A stretch of 64,000 nt of DNA from Ostreococcus lucimarinus (lineage: Eukaryota), in NCBI GenBank assembly GCA_000092065.1, contig CP000597.1; one strand, written 5' to 3'. Positions 56,684 to 64,000 of this stretch are shown in pieces. The notes under the pieces were generated by a model. The model saw only the letters and a list, made by a program, of their open reading frames with translations, did not search any database and had not been told where the DNA came from. The position numbers and the translations under genes were made by a program. The first letter of the stretch is position 1. Each line of letters opens with the position of its first letter.

Positions 56684-57436
56684 TCACGCGACGTCGACTG
56701 GAATTCGTTTCACGGTCTGCGCCGCCGCCGATGCCTTCGGAACGACAATCTTGAGCACACCATTTTTCACGTTTGCGCTGATTTCTTCGACGATAGCGTG
56801 CGGTGGTAAAGTGAATTTGTTCATGAAGCTTCCGAAGTGGCGCTCTCTCTTGTGCTTGTGCACGTCCGATCCCACGTCCGATCCCGCGTCCTCGACGCGT
56901 TCGCCTCGAATCGTTAGCACATTCGTCGGCACGTTGACTTCGATGCTGAGATTCTTCTCGACATCGATTCCCGGAACATCGGCGGTAAAAGTGATCGAGG
57001 ACGCAGTTTCTTCGACGTCCATGGCAGATCTCCCGATCAACGTCGAAAAGATCTGTGCCAAGGGTGATTTGTGCCGCGCGCTCTCGTCCTCGACGTCGGC
57101 GCTCAAGACGGAAAAGATCTGTGCCAAGGGTGATTTGTGCCGCGCGCTCTCGTCCTCGACGTCGGCGCTCAAGACGGCGCCGCCGCCCGAGCCGCTCGCT
57201 GCTGGAGCACACACGTCGAAGCTACGAACGAGCTGTTGGACCGTGTCAAGTGCGCGCGTGAGTTCGTTCATCGGCGTCGATGAAGCCACGCCACCGCTTT
57301 CGGGCGTACTCGTTGAAGAAGCTTTTTCTCTCTTGGGGAAAAGCTGGAACGCGCGCGCGGGTGCAAAGCTTTGCACGACGACCGCAATGGAGAGCAGTAG
57401 TGCGGGAGCGAAGGAAAATTTCCGACGCGAATGCAT
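56684..57436 (-). CDS. Small heat-shock protein (HSP20/alpha-crystallin domain) with signal-peptide-like N-terminus and an internal 22-aa tandem duplication
   Basis: The alpha-crystallin domain is MDVEETASSITFTADVPGIDVEKNLSIEVNVPTNVLTIRGERVE…HFGSFMNKFTLPPHAIVEEISANVKNGVLKIVVPK. The N-terminus MHSRRKFSFAPALLLSIAVVVQSFAPARA is hydrophobic. Confidence 0.8.
   Translation of the reverse strand: MHSRRKFSFAPALLLSIAVVVQSFAPARAFQLFPKREKASSTSTPESGGVASSTPMNELTRALDTVQQLVRSFDVCAPAASGSGGGAVLSADVEDESARHKSPLAQIFSVLSADVEDESARHKSPLAQIFSTLIGRSAMDVEETASSITFTADVPGIDVEKNLSIEVNVPTNVLTIRGERVEDAGSDVGSDVHKHKRERHFGSFMNKFTLPPHAIVEEISANVKNGVLKIVVPKASAAAQTVKRIPVDVA
57045..57176. repeat. Perfect 66-bp in-frame tandem duplication inside the sHSP gene
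   Basis: gaaaagatctgtgccaagggtgatttgtgccgcgcgctctcgtcctcgacgtcggcgctcaagacg occurs twice, giving LSADVEDESARHKSPLAQIFS(V/T) twice in the protein. Confidence 0.8.
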
Positions 57437-57547: not shown

Positions 57548-60022
57548 CTAAATTTCATCGTCATCGTTCTCCGCGACTGCCCGTGCGACTTTCGTTTGAT
57601 CGACATCTCGATAGGTGGCACTGTTTGGCAAGTATCCCGTGCCTTGACGATACTTTTTTTTGTGCTTTTGGTTCAGACGCGCGACCGCTTGCAGCACCGT
57701 ATCGGCTTGATCGACGTCTAGACGAGACTTTTTCACTTCCTCTTCATTTTCGATTGGTCCAGGCACCGTCTCAAGCCTTGACTCATCGACTAATAATTTG
57801 TTCAGAATGTCGCCAACGTCGAAGATCGCGCTCTTCTTCGACGGATCGCGCGCTTCATCTTCAGCCTTGCGTTGAGCGCGCGCCTTGAGAACGTATTCCC
57901 TGCGAATCTTTTCGTAGTTCTCGTCCCCTGGTTCGAGAACGGATGCATCGACCGAACATGACTGGAGGAACTCAGAAAACCTCTCCGATGTTCTCACCGA
58001 GACGCTCGTCGCGGGTTCGCTCGGGTCCGTTCTGACCTGCATTTCTTCCAAATTATTTTCCATACTTGTACCGAAACGTCCCTCTGATCCTAACACTTCT
58101 TGCTTAACGCGCATCCTACGCACCTTTTGTCGTTCGGCAGGGTCCAGATCTTTCAACGCTTCTCGAAAAGCGGACATGTCCACGATGGATGAAATTTGTA
58201 CCAAGTCCTTTTCCGCGAGTTCGCTCGGAAGCAAGCTCGAAAGTTCCGAGCCGCTGTCGTCGCCGTCGCCGTCGCCATCGCCGGCTACGACGTCCGCGCT
58301 CGCAAACGACGACAAATTGCCGCTCGTCACCGTTCGATCGCGCAATGAAGGCTTTGACGCGGTCTTCTCATATTCCCAAAGCTTTTTCGACGTCTGTTCT
58401 CGACTTCGACGCTTTTGCCGCCTCAGAGCGCACGCCGTGGCGTTGTAGCACGGCACCGCGACTCGCACGAACGTGTGCAGCACGATGTACTCATATTTGG
58501 CAATATTTTCCTCTTGCGAATAATCGGGCTGATCAATAATCCAAAGCTGAAAACTCAGCAAGCTCTGCACCGCCAAGAGCATGGCGAGAAGCTCGACGTT
58601 GCTCGCCGGCAGTCTAAGCCGGCGCGCGCCGGCCACTAACAATGGATTGTAAAAGTACACAGTCGTCGTCGATGTCTTCGACTCTAAACGACGCTTCATA
58701 ACGCGGTTCGTTTGTATCCACTCGTAATAATGCCACAAGTACAACGGTCCGAGCATGAGAAACAAGGCGGCGGGCGCCGAGCCGAAGAGGCGGTCGATGT
58801 CTTCTAGCGGATCTGGGATGTTGCCAATCTCGGCAGCCAGGGCTGCTTCGGCGTCCACGCGTTCGTCCTTGGCCAATCGCTTCGCCTCGAGCGCTCGCTC
58901 TTTTCCGAACTCAGCAATTCTCCGACGACGCTTTTTAATATCCATTTTTACCCCGTCGCGAGTGAAGAGCATTCTTTTCAACGTAATTTCAATTTCTCTG
59001 ATTCGGTTTTGAAGCTCGAGCGCTCGTGGATCCGTCTTCAGCATCTCCACTGTAAAGTTTCCGCGAACGGAGTGCACGAGCCGTTTCATGTCCAAGAAGA
59101 GTTGTCCACAATTGAGCTCCAGCGTAGCCAACTTCACTTCCAAGTCGACGAGCGTCTTTCGCTCTGATTCGTAGTCGAACACCGCCTGCAGCTGCGTCTC
59201 TTCTTCTACGCTCTCCGATTCACTCGAAGCCGAGACGGTTTTCTTATCTCTTCCGGCACCGAAACACGCGAAGCAACCGGTCGGCGGTTCTTCCAACGCC
59301 GCCTCGGGTGCCTCCGGCGGCGGCGACGCTTCTGTGGTTTCCTCTTCCTCCTCCGTCGCCGCCGTTGACTCTTCCTCGGTGTCGGGCTCCTCCACGAAAC
59401 CATCCCTCTTGACGAACTCTTCGGCAAATATCCAATTCGCTACGCGTATGGGCGTCGCGTTCACGCTCCCGTCTGGGAACCGCGTCTGCGGCGCCACACG
59501 TTTTTCATAATAGCTCAAATTGATGTACTTCGACGTCACTTCCTCGTAAGTATGGACGTCAAACGCCGCCGGATCGGCGTCGTCCGCGTACACCACGCGT
59601 CTATCGCGTCCGTCGTCGTCGCTCTCGTCCGCCGACTCTCCGCTCGGTTCGGCCACGGGCGTCTGTAATCGTGTACGCCACGCTCGCTCTTGCGCCATCG
59701 CCGCGAAGCGTCTCGCCGCGCGCGTGAGCGATTCCTCCACCTCCCCCGCGCGCGTGCTCCCCGGTATCATCACCCCGAACGTGGCGTCGATGAGTTCGTC
59801 TTCGCGCACGCCCACGATCGCTTTACCGCCGTTCGTCGTCGCCAGCGCCTGGACGTAGCGCGCCTCGTCGTCGTCGTCGTCGTCGTCCGCTCGAACACCA
59901 TTCGTGTGGTCGGCGCCGAACACGTACGGTGCGTCGCCGTCGCGTCTCGTTCGACGCTCGCGCGCGACGTCGTACCCGACGATTTCGACCACGTCCGCCT
60001 TCGCGTCGTCGTCGTCCGCCAT
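57548..60022 (-). CDS. Hypothetical large protein with acidic N-terminal region, central coiled coil and C-terminal transmembrane segments
   Basis: A 902-aa track ORF (GTG start at 60256; first ATG at 60022, MADDDDAKADVVEIVGYDV…). Its coiled coil is QLQAVFDYESERKTLVDLEVKLATLELNCGQLFLDMKRLVH…. Hydrophobic helices follow (GPLYLWHYYEWIQ and LLAMLLAVQSLLSFQLWII). Confidence 0.5.
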   Translation of the reverse strand: MADDDDAKADVVEIVGYDVARERRTRRDGDAPYVFGADHTNGVRADDDDDDDEARYVQALATTNGGKAIVGVREDELIDATFGVMIPGSTRAGEVEESLTRAARRFAAMAQERAWRTRLQTPVAEPSGESADESDDDGRDRRVVYADDADPAAFDVHTYEEVTSKYINLSYYEKRVAPQTRFPDGSVNATPIRVANWIFAEEFVKRDGFVEEPDTEEESTAATEEEEETTEASPPPEAPEAALEEPPTGCFACFGAGRDKKTVSASSESESVEEETQLQAVFDYESERKTLVDLEVKLATLELNCGQLFLDMKRLVHSVRGNFTVEMLKTDPRALELQNRIREIEITLKRMLFTRDGVKMDIKKRRRRIAEFGKERALEAKRLAKDERVDAEAALAAEIGNIPDPLEDIDRLFGSAPAALFLMLGPLYLWHYYEWIQTNRVMKRRLESKTSTTTVYFYNPLLVAGARRLRLPASNVELLAMLLAVQSLLSFQLWIIDQPDYSQEENIAKYEYIVLHTFVRVAVPCYNATACALRRQKRRSREQTSKKLWEYEKTASKPSLRDRTVTSGNLSSFASADVVAGDGDGDGDDSGSELSSLLPSELAEKDLVQISSIVDMSAFREALKDLDPAERQKVRRMRVKQEVLGSEGRFGTSMENNLEEMQVRTDPSEPATSVSVRTSERFSEFLQSCSVDASVLEPGDENYEKIRREYVLKARAQRKAEDEARDPSKKSAIFDVGDILNKLLVDESRLETVPGPIENEEEVKKSRLDVDQADTVLQAVARLNQKHKKKYRQGTGYLPNSATYRDVDQTKVARAVAENDDDEI

Positions 60023-60157
60023 GGCGTGACGGCGCGTCGGCGTCTGACGCGCGGAACGACGCGCGCGTCGACGCGCGCATTCATCCGCTCGGTCGTCACA
60101 TCGCGGACGCGCGGATCGAGCGCGGGCGCGAACGTCCACGGCGCGTCGAACGTCGCG

Positions 60158-61516
60158 ATGGATCAAGAGTACGACGCCATCATCTTGGGCACCGGCCTGA
60201 AGGAGTGCCTCGTCGCCGGCTTGCTCGCGAGCGTCGAAGGCTACAAGATCCTGCACGTGGACCGAAACGATTACTACGGTGGGGAAAGCGCGAGTTTAAA
60301 TTTGACGCAGCTGCACGAGAAGTTCGCACCCGAGAAGGCGCAAGACAAAGCGGCGCTGACGGCCAAGTACGGACGATGGCAAGACTACAACATCGATTTG
60401 GTCCCCAAATTCATGATGGGAAACGGATTGCTCGTGCGCGTGCTCGTCCGCACCGGCGTGCACAACTACTTGCAATTTCGCGCCGCCGAAGGGTCGTACG
60501 TGCAAGGAAAGGGTGGAAAGATTCATAAAGTGCCGTCGAACGATAAGGAAGCGCTGCGGAGCTCGCTGATGGGAATGTTTGAAAAGTTGCGAGCGCGCAG
60601 CTTTTTCATCTTTGTGCAAAATTTCGTCGAGACGGACCCGAGCACGCACGGCGGATACAACTTACAGCGCATGCCGGCGAGAGATTTGTACGAAAAGTTT
60701 GGTTTAGCCGCGGAAACGGTGGAGTTCATCGGTCACGCGTTGGCGTTGAAGACGAACGAACGCTATTTGGACGAGCCCGCCGTCGACCTCGTCAAGGCGG
60801 TGAGACTTTACTCCGATTCTATGGCGCGATTCGACACCGGTTCGCCGTACATTTATCCGCTTTACGGCCTAGGAGAACTCCCGCAAGGATTTGCACGTCT
60901 CAGTGCGGTGCACGGGGGGACGTACATGCTGGCGAAATCCGACGTCGAGGTCGTGTACGACGAGGAAACCGGTCGCGCGTGCGGCGCGAAATCCGAGGGC
61001 GAAACCGCCAAAGCAAAGTTCGTCGTCGGTGACGCGAGCTACTTTCCAGGGAAGACTCAAAAGGTCGGTCAAGTCGTTCGAGCGTTGTGCTTGCTGAGCC
61101 ATCCGATTCCGAATGTGAACGACGCGGAGAGCGTACAAATTATCATTCCAGCGGCGCAGTGCGGCCGCCGCCACGACGTCTACGTGCTCGGCACGAGCTC
61201 GGCGCACAACGTTTGCGCAAAGGGACGCTACTTCGCGTCGGTGAGTACGACTGTTGAAACGAACGATCCTCATCGCGAACTCGAGGCTGGTCTTCGCATG
61301 CTCGGTCCGATCGACGAGCTCTTTTACAACGTCACCGACGTGCACGCGCCTCTCGCGGATGGAACTGCCGACGGCGCGTTCATCTCCACGGGTTACGATG
61401 CCACGACGCACTTCGAGACGACGGTTCGGGATGTCGTCGATATTTATCGACGAATCACGGGCAAAGAATTAGACTTGTCCAAGGACGACGCGGCCGCGGC
61501 GAACACTTCGGGCTGA
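60158..61516 (+). CDS. GDI: Rab GDP-dissociation inhibitor (Rab-GDI)
   Basis: MDQEYDAIILGTGLKECLVAGLLASVEGYKILHVDRNDYYGGESASLNL… shows full-length Rab-GDI/REP family conservation through to …GYDATTHFETTVRDVVDIYRRITGKELDL. The start is an ATG at 60158. Confidence 0.9.
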   Translation: MDQEYDAIILGTGLKECLVAGLLASVEGYKILHVDRNDYYGGESASLNLTQLHEKFAPEKAQDKAALTAKYGRWQDYNIDLVPKFMMGNGLLVRVLVRTGVHNYLQFRAAEGSYVQGKGGKIHKVPSNDKEALRSSLMGMFEKLRARSFFIFVQNFVETDPSTHGGYNLQRMPARDLYEKFGLAAETVEFIGHALALKTNERYLDEPAVDLVKAVRLYSDSMARFDTGSPYIYPLYGLGELPQGFARLSAVHGGTYMLAKSDVEVVYDEETGRACGAKSEGETAKAKFVVGDASYFPGKTQKVGQVVRALCLLSHPIPNVNDAESVQIIIPAAQCGRRHDVYVLGTSSAHNVCAKGRYFASVSTTVETNDPHRELEAGLRMLGPIDELFYNVTDVHAPLADGTADGAFISTGYDATTHFETTVRDVVDIYRRITGKELDLSKDDAAAANTSG

Positions 61517-61633: not shown

Positions 61634-62767
61634 CTACATTTTTTGGCCCCATTCCTCAAAGTCTGGAAATCGTTCAATGAACTTGGCCGCCGACGTATTC
61701 ACGGCGACTATCGCGCTCGTCGTATCGTGCGGGTGCCTCTCGTGGAGAAACGCCAAACGCGATATCACGCGTTCGCTCGATGTGAGCATGCGCGCTAAAG
61801 ATGCCGGCTTCAGTGCGTACTGTTGAATCGCGCCCGGTTTCGTGCGCGCGAGCTGTGCGCACCTATCAGCGAAGGTGTTTGGGTTGGTCGTCAGTAATCG
61901 CGGCGAATACATGATCATCGCCTCGACCGTTGACTCGCTCACGCCTTCAGACGCCAGCGTTTGACGCATGGCGCGAAGATTCGAACTGACGCTCGATGAA
62001 ATATTCATCGAAAGCAACTTGGGATGAGAATCAATCAAGGCGAAGACATCGGTGTACGGCAACAGCTTTGACAACTCGCGCAGCTTTGCCGGTATCGTCA
62101 TGGTGAAATCCATGCCGAGCACCTGCGGGTTCCGTTCGATCAACCGCTTCAAGTCCACGGTCGGTAAAAGTTCGCGTAAAAGTTCCAACTTTTCCGCCGT
62201 CCAGTCTAAATCGCAGTAAATCACGCGTGGACATCGTCCGACGATGACGCCCAAATCGACGCCGCTCAGCGACGCGCCCAACCACAGCGCGTCTTCGAGC
62301 TGCGCCAATCGCTCGAGTAGACGAACAGGGTCTCGATAGAGTCCGGCTTTACACGCCATATCAATCAAACGCTCGCGATGCGCCTTCTTGCGCACTCCGA
62401 CGCCAATCCAGAACGCTTCCATGATTTTAACTTGCTCGCGCGTGAGCGACACGCTTCCAGCCTCTTTCACTTGCGTCGAGGCGTCCACCTCCATGAGCGC
62501 GCTGATCAAATCCTCCCGGAGCAACATCTCCCCGTGACCGTGGTAATACAACCGCTTCCCGTGCCGCTCTTTCACGCGGCGCGGGTCGGGAACGACGTAC
62601 GACGACGAGGCTCCTCCATCAGCACCCCCGGCGTCGTTCGACGAGCGTCCTCGCGCTGCGCGCGACGCCGTCGCACCGCGCGACGGGTGACGCGGACATC
62701 GAGCGACGCGTGGTACCGCGCACCACGTTCCGCCACGACCGGATGATTCCGCCGTCACCGCGCGCAT
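61634..62767 (-). CDS. mTERF-family (mitochondrial transcription termination factor-like) protein
   Basis: It has repeated mTERF-type helical motifs (…LRELLPTVDLKRLIERNPQVLGMDFTMTIPAKLRELSKLLPYTDVFALIDSHPKLLSMNISSSVSSNLRAM…). It sits in a lower-GC segment. The track start at 62854 is GTG; the first ATG is at 62767. Confidence 0.6.
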   Translation of the reverse strand: MRAVTAESSGRGGTWCAVPRVARCPRHPSRGATASRAARGRSSNDAGGADGGASSSYVVPDPRRVKERHGKRLYYHGHGEMLLREDLISALMEVDASTQVKEAGSVSLTREQVKIMEAFWIGVGVRKKAHRERLIDMACKAGLYRDPVRLLERLAQLEDALWLGASLSGVDLGVIVGRCPRVIYCDLDWTAEKLELLRELLPTVDLKRLIERNPQVLGMDFTMTIPAKLRELSKLLPYTDVFALIDSHPKLLSMNISSSVSSNLRAMRQTLASEGVSESTVEAMIMYSPRLLTTNPNTFADRCAQLARTKPGAIQQYALKPASLARMLTSSERVISRLAFLHERHPHDTTSAIVAVNTSAAKFIERFPDFEEWGQKM

Positions 62768-62926
62768 GACGCCGCTCGCGTCGCCGCACTGTGAGGAATT
62801 CAACAGATTTGGCGGTTGACGTTCGATCGACGCGATCGCGTCGCATTTCGGCACACTCTCGCGGGACGCGTGGGATCTACTTCATTCTTACATAGCGTTA
62901 CGCATTTTTGATGATTTCTTGGAGCG

Positions 62927-63505
62927 CTAAGCCAAGCCGTTTTCTCGCGCCCACTTCGGCGAGTACGTCGCCGCGCACTCCGCATCTATTTTGGCAGCGA
63001 GGATGAAGTCAAACCGCGAGAGTCCCCCGATAGCGTGTGTGGCGATCACCACTTCCACGTCGCGATAATTTTTAATGGCGACGTCCGGGTGGTGTCCTTC
63101 GCGCTCGGCGACGACGCTCACGGCGTTTAGAAACTCCATCGCCGCGGACCAGTTCTTTGAAGTGAACGCGCGTGAGATCGCGCGCCCATCCGCGGTGCGC
63201 CGCCACAACGGTCGCTGACGGAGTCCTTCTTCGATGGAACTTTCGCTCAATCGTGGGGTGTCCCTCGAACACGCGCCCTCGCACGAACTCTTTTCATCCA
63301 TCGCCGCGGTTTCACGAACGCCGCTCGTGACGCGCGAACTGAAACGACGTCCGACGGCGACGCGCGCGAACGAACGCGATGCGAACCTGTCGCACAACGC
63401 TCGTCCGGCCACGCGCGCTATGTATGCCGTCGTCGTCGCGCTCGTCGAACGACGTCTCCGTGGCGTCGCGCTGTGACGGTTACGCGTCACGGTCCCGCGC
63501 CACAT
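62927..63505 (-). CDS. PCBD: Pterin-4a-carbinolamine dehydratase (PCD/DCoH) with organellar presequence
   Basis: EGLRQRPLWRRTADGRAISRAFTSKNWSAAMEFLNAVSVVAEREGHHPDVAIKNYRDVEVVIATHAIGGLSRFDFILAAKID carries the [ED]-x-H-H-P-x5-Y-x2-V-x-V-x3-TH signature. Start candidates are ATGs at 63505 (with presequence) and 63301. Confidence 0.8.
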   Translation of the reverse strand: MWRGTVTRNRHSATPRRRRSTSATTTAYIARVAGRALCDRFASRSFARVAVGRRFSSRVTSGVRETAAMDEKSSCEGACSRDTPRLSESSIEEGLRQRPLWRRTADGRAISRAFTSKNWSAAMEFLNAVSVVAEREGHHPDVAIKNYRDVEVVIATHAIGGLSRFDFILAAKIDAECAATYSPKWARENGLA

Positions 63506-63575
63506 CGCGGCGCCGTGATGCCGAGCGAGCGCGGGGGCGGGTTTTGTCGAAGGAGGCAAGAAACATCGACCAGAC

Positions 63576-63851
63576 ATGGTCATCGACAACGCTTTCGACG
63601 ACAACGTCAAGATTGTGTTCGACCTCACCAACCAGGCGCCACTCACTCGCCATGGCACAAACATTCTGGCAGTTGACAACCACCTTGAGAGCGCGGAAGA
63701 GAAGAAGAGAAACTCGCCCGCATGGGCGAACTTTGTTCCCTTGGACGGCTTGACGAGCGAATTCGTGCCTTTTGCAATCGGTTGGTACGGTGAGATAGGT
63801 GGAGAAGCGTTGAGTTTCATTCGAAGAATCGTTGGCTTTTTTAGGGTTTAG
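63576..63851 (+). CDS. Terminal ORF (91 aa) abutting the telomere; its stop codon is provided by the first TTTAGGG repeats. Possibly a truncated gene fragment.
   Basis: MVIDNAFDDNVKIVFDLTNQAPLTRHGTNILAVDNHLESAEEKKRNSPAWANFVPLDGLTSEFVPFAIGWYGEIGGEALSFIRRIVGFFRV*. The last codons are …ggc ttt ttt agg gtt tag, with the final three lying inside the telomere repeat. The segment has lower GC and a non-low-complexity composition. No family recognised. Confidence 0.3.
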   Translation: MVIDNAFDDNVKIVFDLTNQAPLTRHGTNILAVDNHLESAEEKKRNSPAWANFVPLDGLTSEFVPFAIGWYGEIGGEALSFIRRIVGFFRV

Positions 63852-64000
63852 GGTTTAGGGTTTAGGGTTTAGGGTTTAGGGTTTAGGGTTTAGGGTTTAG
63901 GGTTTAGGGTTTAGGGTTTAGGGTTTAGGGTTTAGGGTTTAGGGTTTAGGGTTTAGGGTTTAGGGTTTAGGGTTTAGGGTTTAGGGTTTAGGGTTTAGGG
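63843..64000 (+). repeat. Telomere: about 22 tandem TTTAGGG repeats (plant/green-algal type), G-strand 5'→3' toward the window end
   Basis: A perfect tttagggtttaggg… array runs from 63843 to the end of the window. There is no subtelomeric satellite between it and unique sequence. Confidence 0.95.

What the first reader, a model, noticed from the sequence alone, without database searches (positions are those of the whole stretch)
63576..64000. Gene-like ORF that runs directly into the telomere and uses the telomere repeat as its stop codon; the chromosome end has no subtelomeric repeats
The final 91-codon ORF (lower GC, non-repetitive composition) ends …GFFRV*, where agg-gtt-tag are telomeric TTTAGGG units. 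Unique coding-like sequence therefore abuts the telomere with no subtelomeric satellite, and housekeeping genes (PCD, mTERF, Rab-GDI) lie within 2.5 kb of the end. This is the signature expected of chromosome breakage followed by de novo telomere addition (telomere healing) inside a gene. Alternatively the ORF is fortuitous in the PCD gene's upstream region. Either way, the absence of any subtelomeric buffer is notable.
Basis: partly seen in the sequence, partly recalled or inferred. Interest (0 to 1): 0.6.

Follow-up and report, generated by a model that had tools for sequence, protein, structure and literature searches.

The report
Retrotransposon scrap capped by a telomere
The "gene" that runs into the telomere of this Ostreococcus lucimarinus chromosome is a 294-base scrap of a telomere-associated retrotransposon, left at a chromosome end that was truncated and re-capped more than once; it records end repair and is not a broken housekeeping gene.

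Summary
The sequence observation holds. A 91-codon ORF (63576-63851) runs into 23 perfect TTTAGGG units (63840-64000) and takes its stop codon from them. The window is Ostreococcus lucimarinus CCE9901, and the ORF is annotated as XP_001422174.1.

In wild strains this same chromosome end is polymorphic exactly at 63540, with at least four alleles. Two of them continue with unique sequence that CCE9901 lacks.

Most likely history: truncation at a G-rich site, a telomere seed, acquisition of the element by retrotransposition or break-induced copying, then loss of its distal part and healing by telomerase.

"No subtelomeric repeat" and "inside a gene" are not. This is a new member of a known kind, of moderate interest.

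The parts
63840..64000 (+). Terminal telomere array, (TTTAGGG)23, G-rich strand on +, running to the end of the window
   Evidence: TRF reports period 7, 23.0 copies and 100% matches. The pattern search finds 22 overlapping dimer hits against 0 expected.
63837..63839 (+). Three extra T between the last element base (C63836) and the first full telomere unit, so the first unit reads TTTTTTAGGG
   Evidence: Sequence. The copies L010, L011, L012, L013 and L014 read ...GTTGGC|CATTATG here, so the T's are not templated by the element. P0038 ends ...ALFFRV*, which may reflect a similar T-rich start; this is inferred from the peptide only.
63543..63836 (+). Internal fragment of a non-LTR retrotransposon ORF. 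It corresponds to residues ~379-477 of the 613-aa reference P0030 and covers the RPD...D...E..KK core of the restriction-like endonuclease domain. It is truncated on both sides.
63576..63851 (+). The 91-codon ORF of the finding (annotated XP_001422174.1 / ABP00491.1, 'predicted protein'). Its start is the Met of the RPDM motif and its stop TAG comes from the telomere, so it is an annotation artefact of a dead element fragment.
   Evidence: ORF; annotation; the RPDM motif is conserved across the family.
63531..63545 (+). Proximal junction, GCGGGGGCGG(63540) G TTTT. This is the G-rich end of chromosome-unique sequence plus a one-unit telomere-like seed or T microhomology, and it is where wild alleles of this chromosome end diverge.
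   Evidence: Identity to L036, L038, L039 and L043 stops at 63540, and to L042 at 63544. L042 joins the same GGGTTT to a different internal point of the element. L036, L038 and L039 continue with unique sequence plus an inverted GDI 3' end, and L039 has GTTTAGGG at that junction.
62927..63507 (-). Last resident gene, pterin-4a-carbinolamine dehydratase. The start codon is my inference (MWRG...). Its upstream region therefore consists of the element scrap and the telomere.
   Evidence: Pfam Pterin_4a E = 1.2e-24 on the minus-strand ORF. The annotated start could not be recovered.

Best explanation
The ORF is a dead, doubly truncated fragment of a Mamiellales non-LTR retrotransposon. The full element encodes a reverse transcriptase, a linker of about 330 aa, an R2-type restriction-like (PD-(D/E)XK) endonuclease and a C-terminal tail. 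Its copies sit at chromosome ends with the sense strand on the G-rich strand.

Proposed history of this end:
1. An ancestral chromosome extended beyond 63540. This is shown: other wild strains carry at least 48 nt more unique sequence there.
2. It was truncated at the G-rich tract GCGGGGGCGG and received a telomere seed (G TTT). This is inferred.
3. A 5'-truncated copy of the element became attached to that very short telomere. One route is target-primed reverse transcription from an endonuclease nick in the C-rich strand, with the 5' end joined by T microhomology. The other is break-induced or microhomology-mediated copying from an element at another chromosome end. This step is inferred and the two routes are not resolved.
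4. The distal ~0.5 kb of the copy (the rest of the ORF and the 3' UTR) was lost by erosion or breakage, and telomerase added TTT(TTTAGGG)n directly to ...GTTGGC. The truncation is shown; the role of telomerase is inferred.

The start and stop codons of the 91-aa ORF are accidents of this history. The fragment lacks the reverse transcriptase and the RHD and E motifs of the nuclease, so it cannot be functional.
For: Identity of the fragment:
- 63543-63836 is 99.3% identical to L012, and 98-99% to L010, L011 and L013.
- The longer ORFs P0025, P0028 and P0030 embed it.
- Reverse transcriptase motifs (GVTQGCGLGTLLF, YADD) lie in the same ORF in L029. P0117 matches RVT_1 at 45.8 bits, above the cut-off of 29.6. 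Its best PDB sequence hits are LINE-1 ORF2p and R2.
- The motif spacing RHD-x22-E-x17-RPD-x15-D fits the published REL consensus, apart from one extra residue in the last spacer.

Telomere association of the family:
- 5'-truncated copies are preceded by 1-2 telomere units in L011, L013, L025/26/27 and L047.
- Intact 3' ends abut T(T)AGGG repeats in L001, L028 and L035, with a remnant in L010.
- Internal truncations are capped by telomere at different positions in the window, L013 (+18 nt) and L047. In L023 the cut is followed by one TTTAGGG unit, a 35-bp repeat of that end's subtelomeric motif and then the telomere. Peptides P0038 and P0053 also end in telomere-encoded residues.
- A Bathycoccus chromosome ends in two tandem copies in the same orientation.

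This chromosome end:
- Four alleles diverge at 63540.
- L040 reproduces the proximal junction.
- The shared subtelomere motif is absent from the window.

Literature parallels:
- MoTeR elements show truncation with de novo telomere formation, and interstitial tracts of two repeats or fewer are stable (PMC7367193).
- Healed terminal deletions occur in O. mediterraneus (PMC13390643).
Against: No full-length element was recovered. All ~100 protein hits are fragments and L046 is rearranged, so activity and the N-terminal architecture are unknown.

The distal junction (63836/63837) is seen only in the reference assembly.

The CCHC knuckle expected upstream of RHD in REL-type elements is absent.

Two alleles, the window and L042, share the same GGGTTT remnant but different element start points. 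That is awkward for simple independent insertions into a long telomere.

The polarity between the truncated alleles and those that continue past 63540 is inferred, not proven. The continuing alleles could themselves be fold-back products.

The first structure model, of full-length P0030, was unusable (pLDDT 34).
Confidence: 0.8

Rival explanations
1. The object is the same (a retroelement fragment), but it arrived without retrotransposition. A critically short telomere 3' end (...GGGTTT) invaded an element copy at another chromosome end at T/TT/TTT microhomology and copied outward by BIR or MMBIR. A later erosion was healed by telomerase.
For: - Every 5' junction that can be read sits at a TT(T) of the element: window, L042, L013, L011, L010.
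- Only 0-2 telomere units remain upstream.
- Non-element DNA is captured in the same way. The inverted GDI 3' end is joined after GGGTTT, and after GTTTAGGG in L039.
- L001, L002 and L003 share an identical 5.6-kb terminal block at 99.8% identity, which must have spread by recombination.
- BIR acquisition of telomeric elements is documented for MoTeRs.
Against: - The family encodes a reverse transcriptase and an apparently intact nuclease motif set.
- In L001, L028 and L035 the element 3' end joins telomere repeats directly, and L010 keeps a remnant, as expected of site-specific target-primed insertion.
- Microhomology at 5' junctions is also usual for 5'-truncated LINE insertions (my own knowledge).
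- Short interstitial tracts can be explained by instability of longer ones.
Confidence: 0.35
2. One reading: a resident single-copy cellular gene of this chromosome was cut by a chromosome break and healed by de novo telomere addition.
For: Homologues continue past the junction, so the ORF is truncated.
Against: - The sequence is multi-copy and occurs next to at least 8 different gene neighbourhoods.
- It is part of a reverse transcriptase plus endonuclease element.
- It is also cut at its 5' side at 63543, 36 bp from the PCD start.
- L042 carries a different piece of the element at the same site.
Confidence: 0.03
3. Fortuitous ORF in the upstream region of the PCD gene, with no coding ancestry.
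For: Both strands are open here: the minus-strand ORF 62927..63820 overlaps it. There is no Pfam hit for the 91-aa peptide.
Against: There are protein homologues down to ~30% identity with conserved motifs, and the family's endonuclease domain, of which the ORF is part, gives a confident nuclease-fold model.
Confidence: 0.01
4. Assembly artefact: telomeric reads were wrongly joined to an element fragment, so the real chromosome end differs.
For: The exact 91-aa product and the distal junction occur only in the reference record. The element is repetitive.
Against: - The proximal junction is reproduced in an independent assembly (L040).
- The same architecture, an element cut internally with telomere attached, appears in independent assemblies from other samples: L013, L023, L047.
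- The reference was finished with telomeres at chromosome ends (my own knowledge of the 2007 genome paper, not checked here).
Confidence: 0.05

Closest known systems
R2-type / REL-ENDO (restriction-like endonuclease) site-specific non-LTR retrotransposons (R2, CRE/SLACS/CZAR, NeSL, R4, Hero)
   Same: A single long ORF with a reverse transcriptase followed by a C-terminal PD-(D/E)XK nuclease. The motif series RHD...E...RPD...D is present. The best structural matches are the R2Tg and R2Bm proteins. Copies are 5'-truncated, and four element 3' ends join T(T)AGGG directly, although L035 lacks one T.
   Different: No CCHC knuckle precedes RHD. The linker between reverse transcriptase and nuclease is about 330 aa. 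The last spacer is x15 against x12-14 in the consensus. The N-terminal DNA-binding region is unknown and no full-length copy was found. No reverse transcriptase phylogeny was done, so the clade is unassigned.
Telomere-targeted REL-type elements: MoTeR1/2 (Pyricularia oryzae), FoTeR (Fusarium oxysporum), GilM/GilT (Giardia)
   Same: They live in or next to telomere repeats and encode a reverse transcriptase plus a REL nuclease. Truncated copies are capped by de novo telomeres, interstitial telomere tracts are short (two repeats or fewer), BIR spreads them between ends, and internalised relics occur (PMC7367193; PMC12857005; PMC10088271).
   Different: MoTeR and FoTeR have their 5' end toward the chromosome terminus. 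The Mamiellales element has its 3' end toward the terminus, with the sense strand on the G-rich strand. Telomere-capped truncations here therefore remove the 3' part and cannot result from incomplete reverse transcription. No variant-repeat 5' leader was seen. The host is a green alga.
Zepp / Zepp-like LINEs of green algae (Chlorella telomeric region, Coccomyxa and Chlamydomonas centromeres)
   Same: A green-algal LINE first described accumulated next to TTTAGGG telomeres, with frequent 5' truncation (PMC8226300; PMC10088271).
   Different: Zepp belongs to the L1 clade with an AP-type endonuclease and inserts into its own copies in nested fashion. The present family has an R2-like restriction-type nuclease and no poly(A) tail at the 3' ends seen.
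Chromosome healing / de novo telomere addition after terminal deletion
   Same: Telomere repeats are joined directly to non-telomeric DNA at a point where homologous copies continue. The end is polymorphic between strains. Terminal deletions with new telomeres are reported for the Ostreococcus small outlier chromosome (PMC13390643), and mutations are over-represented within 1 kb of telomeres in Mamiellophyceae (PMC5455958).
   Different: Here two successive events are stacked (63540 and 63836), with a retroelement fragment between them. The event lies on a standard, gene-dense chromosome end 0.33 kb from a housekeeping gene.

Membership tests
Non-LTR retrotransposon with restriction-like endonuclease (R2/CRE/NeSL group) | Reverse transcriptase domain with the conserved motifs | tested here: met
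   P0117 matches RVT_1 at E = 7.7e-12 and 45.8 bits, above the cut-off of 29.6. The motifs RPIGITSVFRR, IDVKNAFN, GVTQGCGLGTLLF and YADD/FADD are present. The best PDB sequence hits are LINE-1 ORF2p (1.4e-4) and R2 (1e-3). The link to the window runs through the single ORF of L029.
Non-LTR retrotransposon with restriction-like endonuclease (R2/CRE/NeSL group) | C-terminal REL-ENDO motifs RHD/N ... E ... R/KPD ... D/E | tested here: met
   The family alignment shows RRRHD-x22-E-x17-RPD-x15-D conserved. The published consensus spacings are x19-33, x9-21 and x12-14 (PMC12857005), so the last spacer is one residue longer. The window fragment retains only RPD...D...E..KK.
Non-LTR retrotransposon with restriction-like endonuclease (R2/CRE/NeSL group) | PD-(D/E)XK fold most similar to R2 endonuclease | tested here: met
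Non-LTR retrotransposon with restriction-like endonuclease (R2/CRE/NeSL group) | CCHC zinc knuckle immediately upstream of RHD | tested here: not met
   The ~30 residues before RHD read AERMGxQSLWxxxxxGHWSTRR and contain no Cys pattern in any member.
Non-LTR retrotransposon with restriction-like endonuclease (R2/CRE/NeSL group) | Variable 5' truncation with a constant 3' end at a specific target | tested here: met
   Different 5' start points occur in the window, L010, L011, L013, L026, L029, L042 and L047. The 3' ends are ...GTGTAATRA..AC or ...AAAAAA followed by T(T)AGGG repeats in L001, L028 and L035, with a remnant in L010.
Non-LTR retrotransposon with restriction-like endonuclease (R2/CRE/NeSL group) | No AP-type endonuclease; N-terminal DNA-binding motifs | tested here: inconclusive
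   No full-length copy was found. The longest N-terminal extension (L048 and P0120, ~200 aa before the reverse transcriptase) has no Pfam hit other than RVT_1.
MoTeR/FoTeR-type telomere-targeted retrotransposons | Embedded in telomere repeats at chromosome ends | tested here: met
   Telomere units flank copies in L011, L013, L025-27 and L047, and lie distal to the copies in L001, L023, L028 and the window.
MoTeR/FoTeR-type telomere-targeted retrotransposons | 5' end oriented toward the chromosome terminus | tested here: not met
   In every terminal copy recovered, the sense strand is the TTTAGGG strand, so the 3' end faces the terminus. MoTeR and FoTeR have the opposite orientation.
MoTeR/FoTeR-type telomere-targeted retrotransposons | Reverse transcriptase and REL phylogeny within the CRE clade | not tested
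Zepp / L1-clade algal LINE | AP endonuclease plus L1-type reverse transcriptase, poly(A) tail, nested self-insertion | tested here: not met
   The nuclease is restriction-like and C-terminal. The 3' ends lack poly(A), except for an A6 run in L028. Zepp features are taken from PMC8226300.
De novo telomere addition (chromosome healing) | Telomere repeats joined to non-telomeric DNA where homologous sequence continues elsewhere | tested here: met
   The window reads ...GTTGGC|TTTTTTAGGG, whereas L010-L014 read ...GTTGGC|CATTATGTGAGAG.
De novo telomere addition (chromosome healing) | Junction differs between strains or lineages at the same end | tested here: met
   Four alleles diverge at 63540. 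The distal junction itself could not be compared because L040 ends at 63597.
De novo telomere addition (chromosome healing) | Junction confirmed by raw or long reads of the strain | not testable with these tools
   No read-level data are available.

The most novel reading that the evidence does not exclude
Mamiellales (Ostreococcus, Bathycoccus) carry a previously undescribed, recently active, telomere-repeat-specific R2-like retrotransposon. It nicks the C-rich strand and inserts with its 3' end toward the terminus. Chromosome ends in wild picoalgal populations then turn over rapidly through cycles of erosion to G-rich seeds, telomerase healing and retroelement or BIR patching. In these ultra-compact genomes the element would act as the only buffer between housekeeping genes and the telomere.
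Probability: 0.3. Interest if true: 0.7.

Novelty: new member of a known kind. Interest (0 to 1): 0.5.

Why it matters
An annotated O. lucimarinus protein (XP_001422174.1) should be re-labelled as a retroelement relic.

The work points to a family of telomere-associated, R2-like non-LTR elements in the smallest free-living eukaryotes. Recent surveys say O. lucimarinus and Bathycoccus have almost no transposable elements, and I found no paper describing such a family.

Metagenome contigs can resolve natural structural alleles of a single chromosome end. Here at least four alleles differ within 10 bp of one position. That makes Ostreococcus a tractable system for studying telomere failure, healing and retroelement patching where genes lie a few hundred bases from the chromosome tip.

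Tried and rejected
- Pfam on the 91-aa ORF and on P0025, P0024, P0007, P0001, P0030 and P0034 gave no hits.
- A sequence search of PDB with the family profile gave only noise.
- The structure prediction of full-length P0030 had pLDDT 34 and was discarded. The second model, restricted to the C-terminal domain with 21 sequences, worked.
- The search for a full-length element failed. The representative search (72 hits in 1.84 billion, almost all fragments), the reverse transcriptase profile search, the metagenome loci and the P0066 contig (a rearranged relic) did not yield one.
- A viral origin was considered because the L012 copy lies in a low-GC region next to unannotated ORFs. A scan of viral contigs with P0030 found no relatives, and the L012 neighbours have no Pfam hits.
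- I tried to recover the annotated PCD protein and its start codon by exact look-up of six alternative starts. None is in the collection.
- Self-similarity of the terminal 445 bp within the window gave only low-complexity GC-rich hits and no second copy of the element.
- The original Zepp, GilM/GilT and MoTeR papers are not held in the library. Comparisons rest on later open-access papers.

Full report
**What is in the window.** The last 4 kb reads GDI (+, 60158-61516), mTERF (-, 61634-62854) and PCD/Pterin_4a (-, 62927 to about 63507). Then comes a lower-GC stretch, followed by 23 perfect TTTAGGG units (63840-64000) that run off the window. The ORF at 63576-63851 has 91 codons and ends GFFRV*, with the stop inside the telomere array. 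Exact protein look-ups identify the source as Ostreococcus lucimarinus CCE9901. GDI is XP_001422173.1, and the 91-aa ORF is itself annotated as XP_001422174.1, 'predicted protein', on a 366,173-bp record. GC is 52% for 63543-63836, against 64% for the adjacent PCD region.

**The ORF has homologues and is truncated on both sides.**
- A protein search gave close relatives (88-93% identity) on many contigs.
- Two of them (P0006, P0007) continue past the window junction...SFIRRIVG|HYVRDERTAAW....
- At DNA level, 63543-63836 is 99.3% identical to L012 10850-11143, where it lies inside a 510-codon ORF.
- Copies in L010, L011 and L013 are 98-99% identical. They begin at different internal positions (window equivalents 63747, 63664 and 63614), and all read GTTGGC|CATTATG where the window reads GTTGGC|TTTTTTAGGG.
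- Homology in the window starts only at 63543, 36 bp from the inferred PCD start.
- The ATG of the ORF is the Met of a conserved RPDM motif.

**The family is a non-LTR retrotransposon with an R2-type nuclease.**
- Searching with the longer ORF gave P0030 (613 aa), whose C-terminus ...VEGEVCGAVLVDE is conserved in members only ~45% identical. The window fragment corresponds to residues 379-477.
- Metagenome loci extend the ORF upstream into reverse transcriptase motifs: GVTQGCGLGTLLF and YADD in L029 and L026, with a partial RVT_1 hit at 9e-5.
- Further fragments add RPIGITSVFRR and IDVKNAFN. P0117 passes the Pfam RVT_1 threshold (E = 7.7e-12), and its best PDB sequence matches are LINE-1 ORF2p and R2. 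One fragment is from Bathycoccus prasinos.
- The C-terminal domain carries RHD-x22-E-x17-RPD-x15-D. This matches the REL-ENDO consensus quoted in PMC12857005, except for one extra residue in the last spacer and the absence of the CCHC knuckle.
- An all-against-library HMM search found only 72 relatives among 1.84 billion representatives, nearly all short fragments. No full-length copy was recovered. No relatives occur in viral contigs.

**The family is telomere-associated.**
- Orientation: in all terminal copies recovered, the sense strand is the TTTAGGG strand.
- Intact 3' ends join telomere repeats directly: L001 ...GTGTAATAAGTAAC|TTAGGG(TTTAGGG)n, L035 ...GTGTAATGATAAAAC|TAGGGCTTAGGG, L028 ...CCTAAAAAA|TTAGGG(TTTAGGG)n. 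L010 keeps a remnant...AATGAC|TTAGCG.
- 5'-truncated copies are preceded by 0-2 telomere units: L011 (TTTAGGG)2T7|, L013 TTTAGGATTTAGGGTTTT|, L025/26/27 ...TTTAGGGC|TTTT, L047 ...GGGTTCGGGTTT|. Every junction that can be read falls on a TT(T) of the element.
- Other copies are cut internally and capped by telomere at different positions: L013 18 nt beyond the window's cut and L047. In L023 the cut is followed by one TTTAGGG unit, a 35-bp repeat of that end's subtelomeric motif and then the telomere. Peptides P0038 and P0053 also end in telomere-encoded residues.
- A Bathycoccus chromosome (OZ116898.1) ends in two tandem partial copies in the same orientation.
- In one lineage, a 5.6-kb block is 99.8% identical on at least three different chromosome ends, so recombination also spreads these sequences. 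The block reads: element 5' part, a 61-aa ORF, an M66 peptidase gene, element 3' part, telomere.

**The same chromosome end in wild strains.** Contigs carrying the identical GDI protein gave independent assemblies of this end.
- L040 matches the window at 100% up to its end at 63597, which confirms the proximal junction.
- L042 shares ...GCGGGGGCGGGTTT but then continues with a far more 3' part of the element (CGCTTCGACATGGAAAGC..., around residue 525).
- L036, L038 and L043 diverge after 63540 into CGGATCGGTGGGATACGCGG.... In L036 and L038 this runs for 48 nt and is followed by GGG|TTTCGTTTCG..., an inverted, near-identical copy of the GDI 3' end. That copy is also seen in L039, where it runs for at least 190 nt. 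L043 ends 13 nt past the divergence point.
- L039 has ...GATACGCGG|GTTTAGGG|TTTCGTTTCG..., which is one telomere unit at that junction.
- The motif GTCGCCGCACTCGCCTCCCTGAA, which precedes five other Ostreococcus chromosome or contig ends, is absent from the window.

The chromosome-unique sequence of CCE9901 therefore stops at a G-rich tract where other strains continue. Everything distal to 63540 is added material.

**Interpretation.** What is shown:
- The ORF is an internal, non-functional piece of a reverse transcriptase plus endonuclease retroelement.
- It is truncated at 63543 and at 63836.
- Telomere repeats follow directly.
- The end is structurally polymorphic at 63540.

What is inferred is the order of events:
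1. Truncation at GCGGGGGCGG with a telomere seed.
2. Attachment of a 5'-truncated element copy.
3. Loss of its distal ~0.5 kb.
4. Healing by telomerase, with TTT plus TTTAGGG units.

For step 2 I cannot separate two routes. The first is target-primed reverse transcription from a nick in the C-rich strand. It is favoured by the direct 3' junctions with telomere repeats and the intact nuclease motifs. The second is microhomology-primed or break-induced copying from another end. It is favoured by the T microhomologies, the 0-2 unit remnants, the capture of non-element DNA in the same way, and the two alleles that share one GGGTTT remnant.

The MoTeR literature documents both routes. It also documents telomere formation on truncated elements and the stability of interstitial tracts of two repeats or fewer (PMC7367193). 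Terminal deletions with new telomeres, and excess mutation within 1 kb of telomeres, are known in this algal group.

**Comparison and novelty.** The family works like the telomere-targeted REL-type LINEs (MoTeR, FoTeR, GilM/T) and structurally resembles R2. It differs in three ways: its orientation (3' end distal), the absence of the CCHC knuckle, and its host. It is not Zepp-like, because Zepp is L1-clade. Full-text searches found no description of a telomere-associated non-LTR element in Ostreococcus or Bathycoccus. [quoted passage not shown] I therefore class it as a new member of a known kind.

**Verdict.** The feature in the window is a small relic, but it opens onto a family and a population-level pattern of end turnover that merit follow-up. 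Its 'healing' idea is right in spirit. Its 'gene' and 'no subtelomeric repeat' claims are not.

Noticed in passing
L026 4742-5986 (-): A 414-aa ORF with a Cas12f1-like TNB domain (Pfam E = 7.6e-11) and a weak OrfB_IS605 hit. It is a TnpB/Fanzor-like gene lying just distal to a telomere-flanked retroelement fragment in an Ostreococcus-like metagenome contig.
   Followed up: partly
L001 9457-15237, L002 9457-15042, L003 8901-14505: A 5.6-kb terminal block, 99.8% identical on at least three different chromosome ends. A 1281-aa Peptidase_M66 gene and a 61-aa ORF sit between the 5' and 3' parts of the retroelement, followed by the telomere.
   Followed up: partly
L036 13438-13508, L038 11272-11385, L039 10971-11160: Distal to PCD, some wild strains carry an inverted, near-identical copy of the GDI 3' end, starting at window-equivalent 61547. 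In L039 it is joined through a single GTTTAGGG unit. This may be a fold-back or template-switch repair product.
   Followed up: partly
L001 9493, L002 9493, L010 9956, L013 7893, L047 5638: The subtelomeric motif GTCGCCGCACTCGCCTCCCTGAA(A)CTAGGG..., followed by degenerate GAAACTAGGGTTA units, is shared by five different chromosome or contig ends and is absent from the window.
   Followed up: partly
L048 6800-8883 (Bathycoccus prasinos OZ116898.1, last 2.1 kb): Two tandem partial copies of the reverse transcriptase element point toward the chromosome end, and the assembly stops inside the second copy without telomere repeats.
   Followed up: partly
L012 11731-13062 (+) and neighbours; L017 6715-8046: A 443-aa ORF with no Pfam hit lies next to the internal copy of the element, in a low-GC (42-55%) region rich in glycosyltransferase and pyruvyl-transferase genes that resembles a small outlier chromosome. 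Here the element copy diverges from the true ORF after ...TAAW.
   Followed up: no
L017 12942-12962: An interstitial (TTTAGGG)3, followed by degenerate telomere-like units, lies about 6.5 kb downstream of the internal element copy.
   Followed up: no
L010 12699-16451: A DDE_Tnp_4 (Harbinger-type) transposase ORF and an XPG-family nuclease gene lie between a 5'-truncated element copy and the contig end. The contig end again matches the start of the L001-type block.
   Followed up: no
window 57045-57177: A perfect tandem duplication of a 66-bp unit (2.0 copies, 100% identity), about 370 bp upstream of the start of the long minus-strand ORF 57548-60256.
   Followed up: no
window 62927-63820 (-): The minus-strand reading frame of the PCD gene stays open through the whole retroelement fragment (297 codons), so both strands are open over 63576-63820. 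The annotated PCD start could not be recovered by exact look-up.
   Followed up: partly
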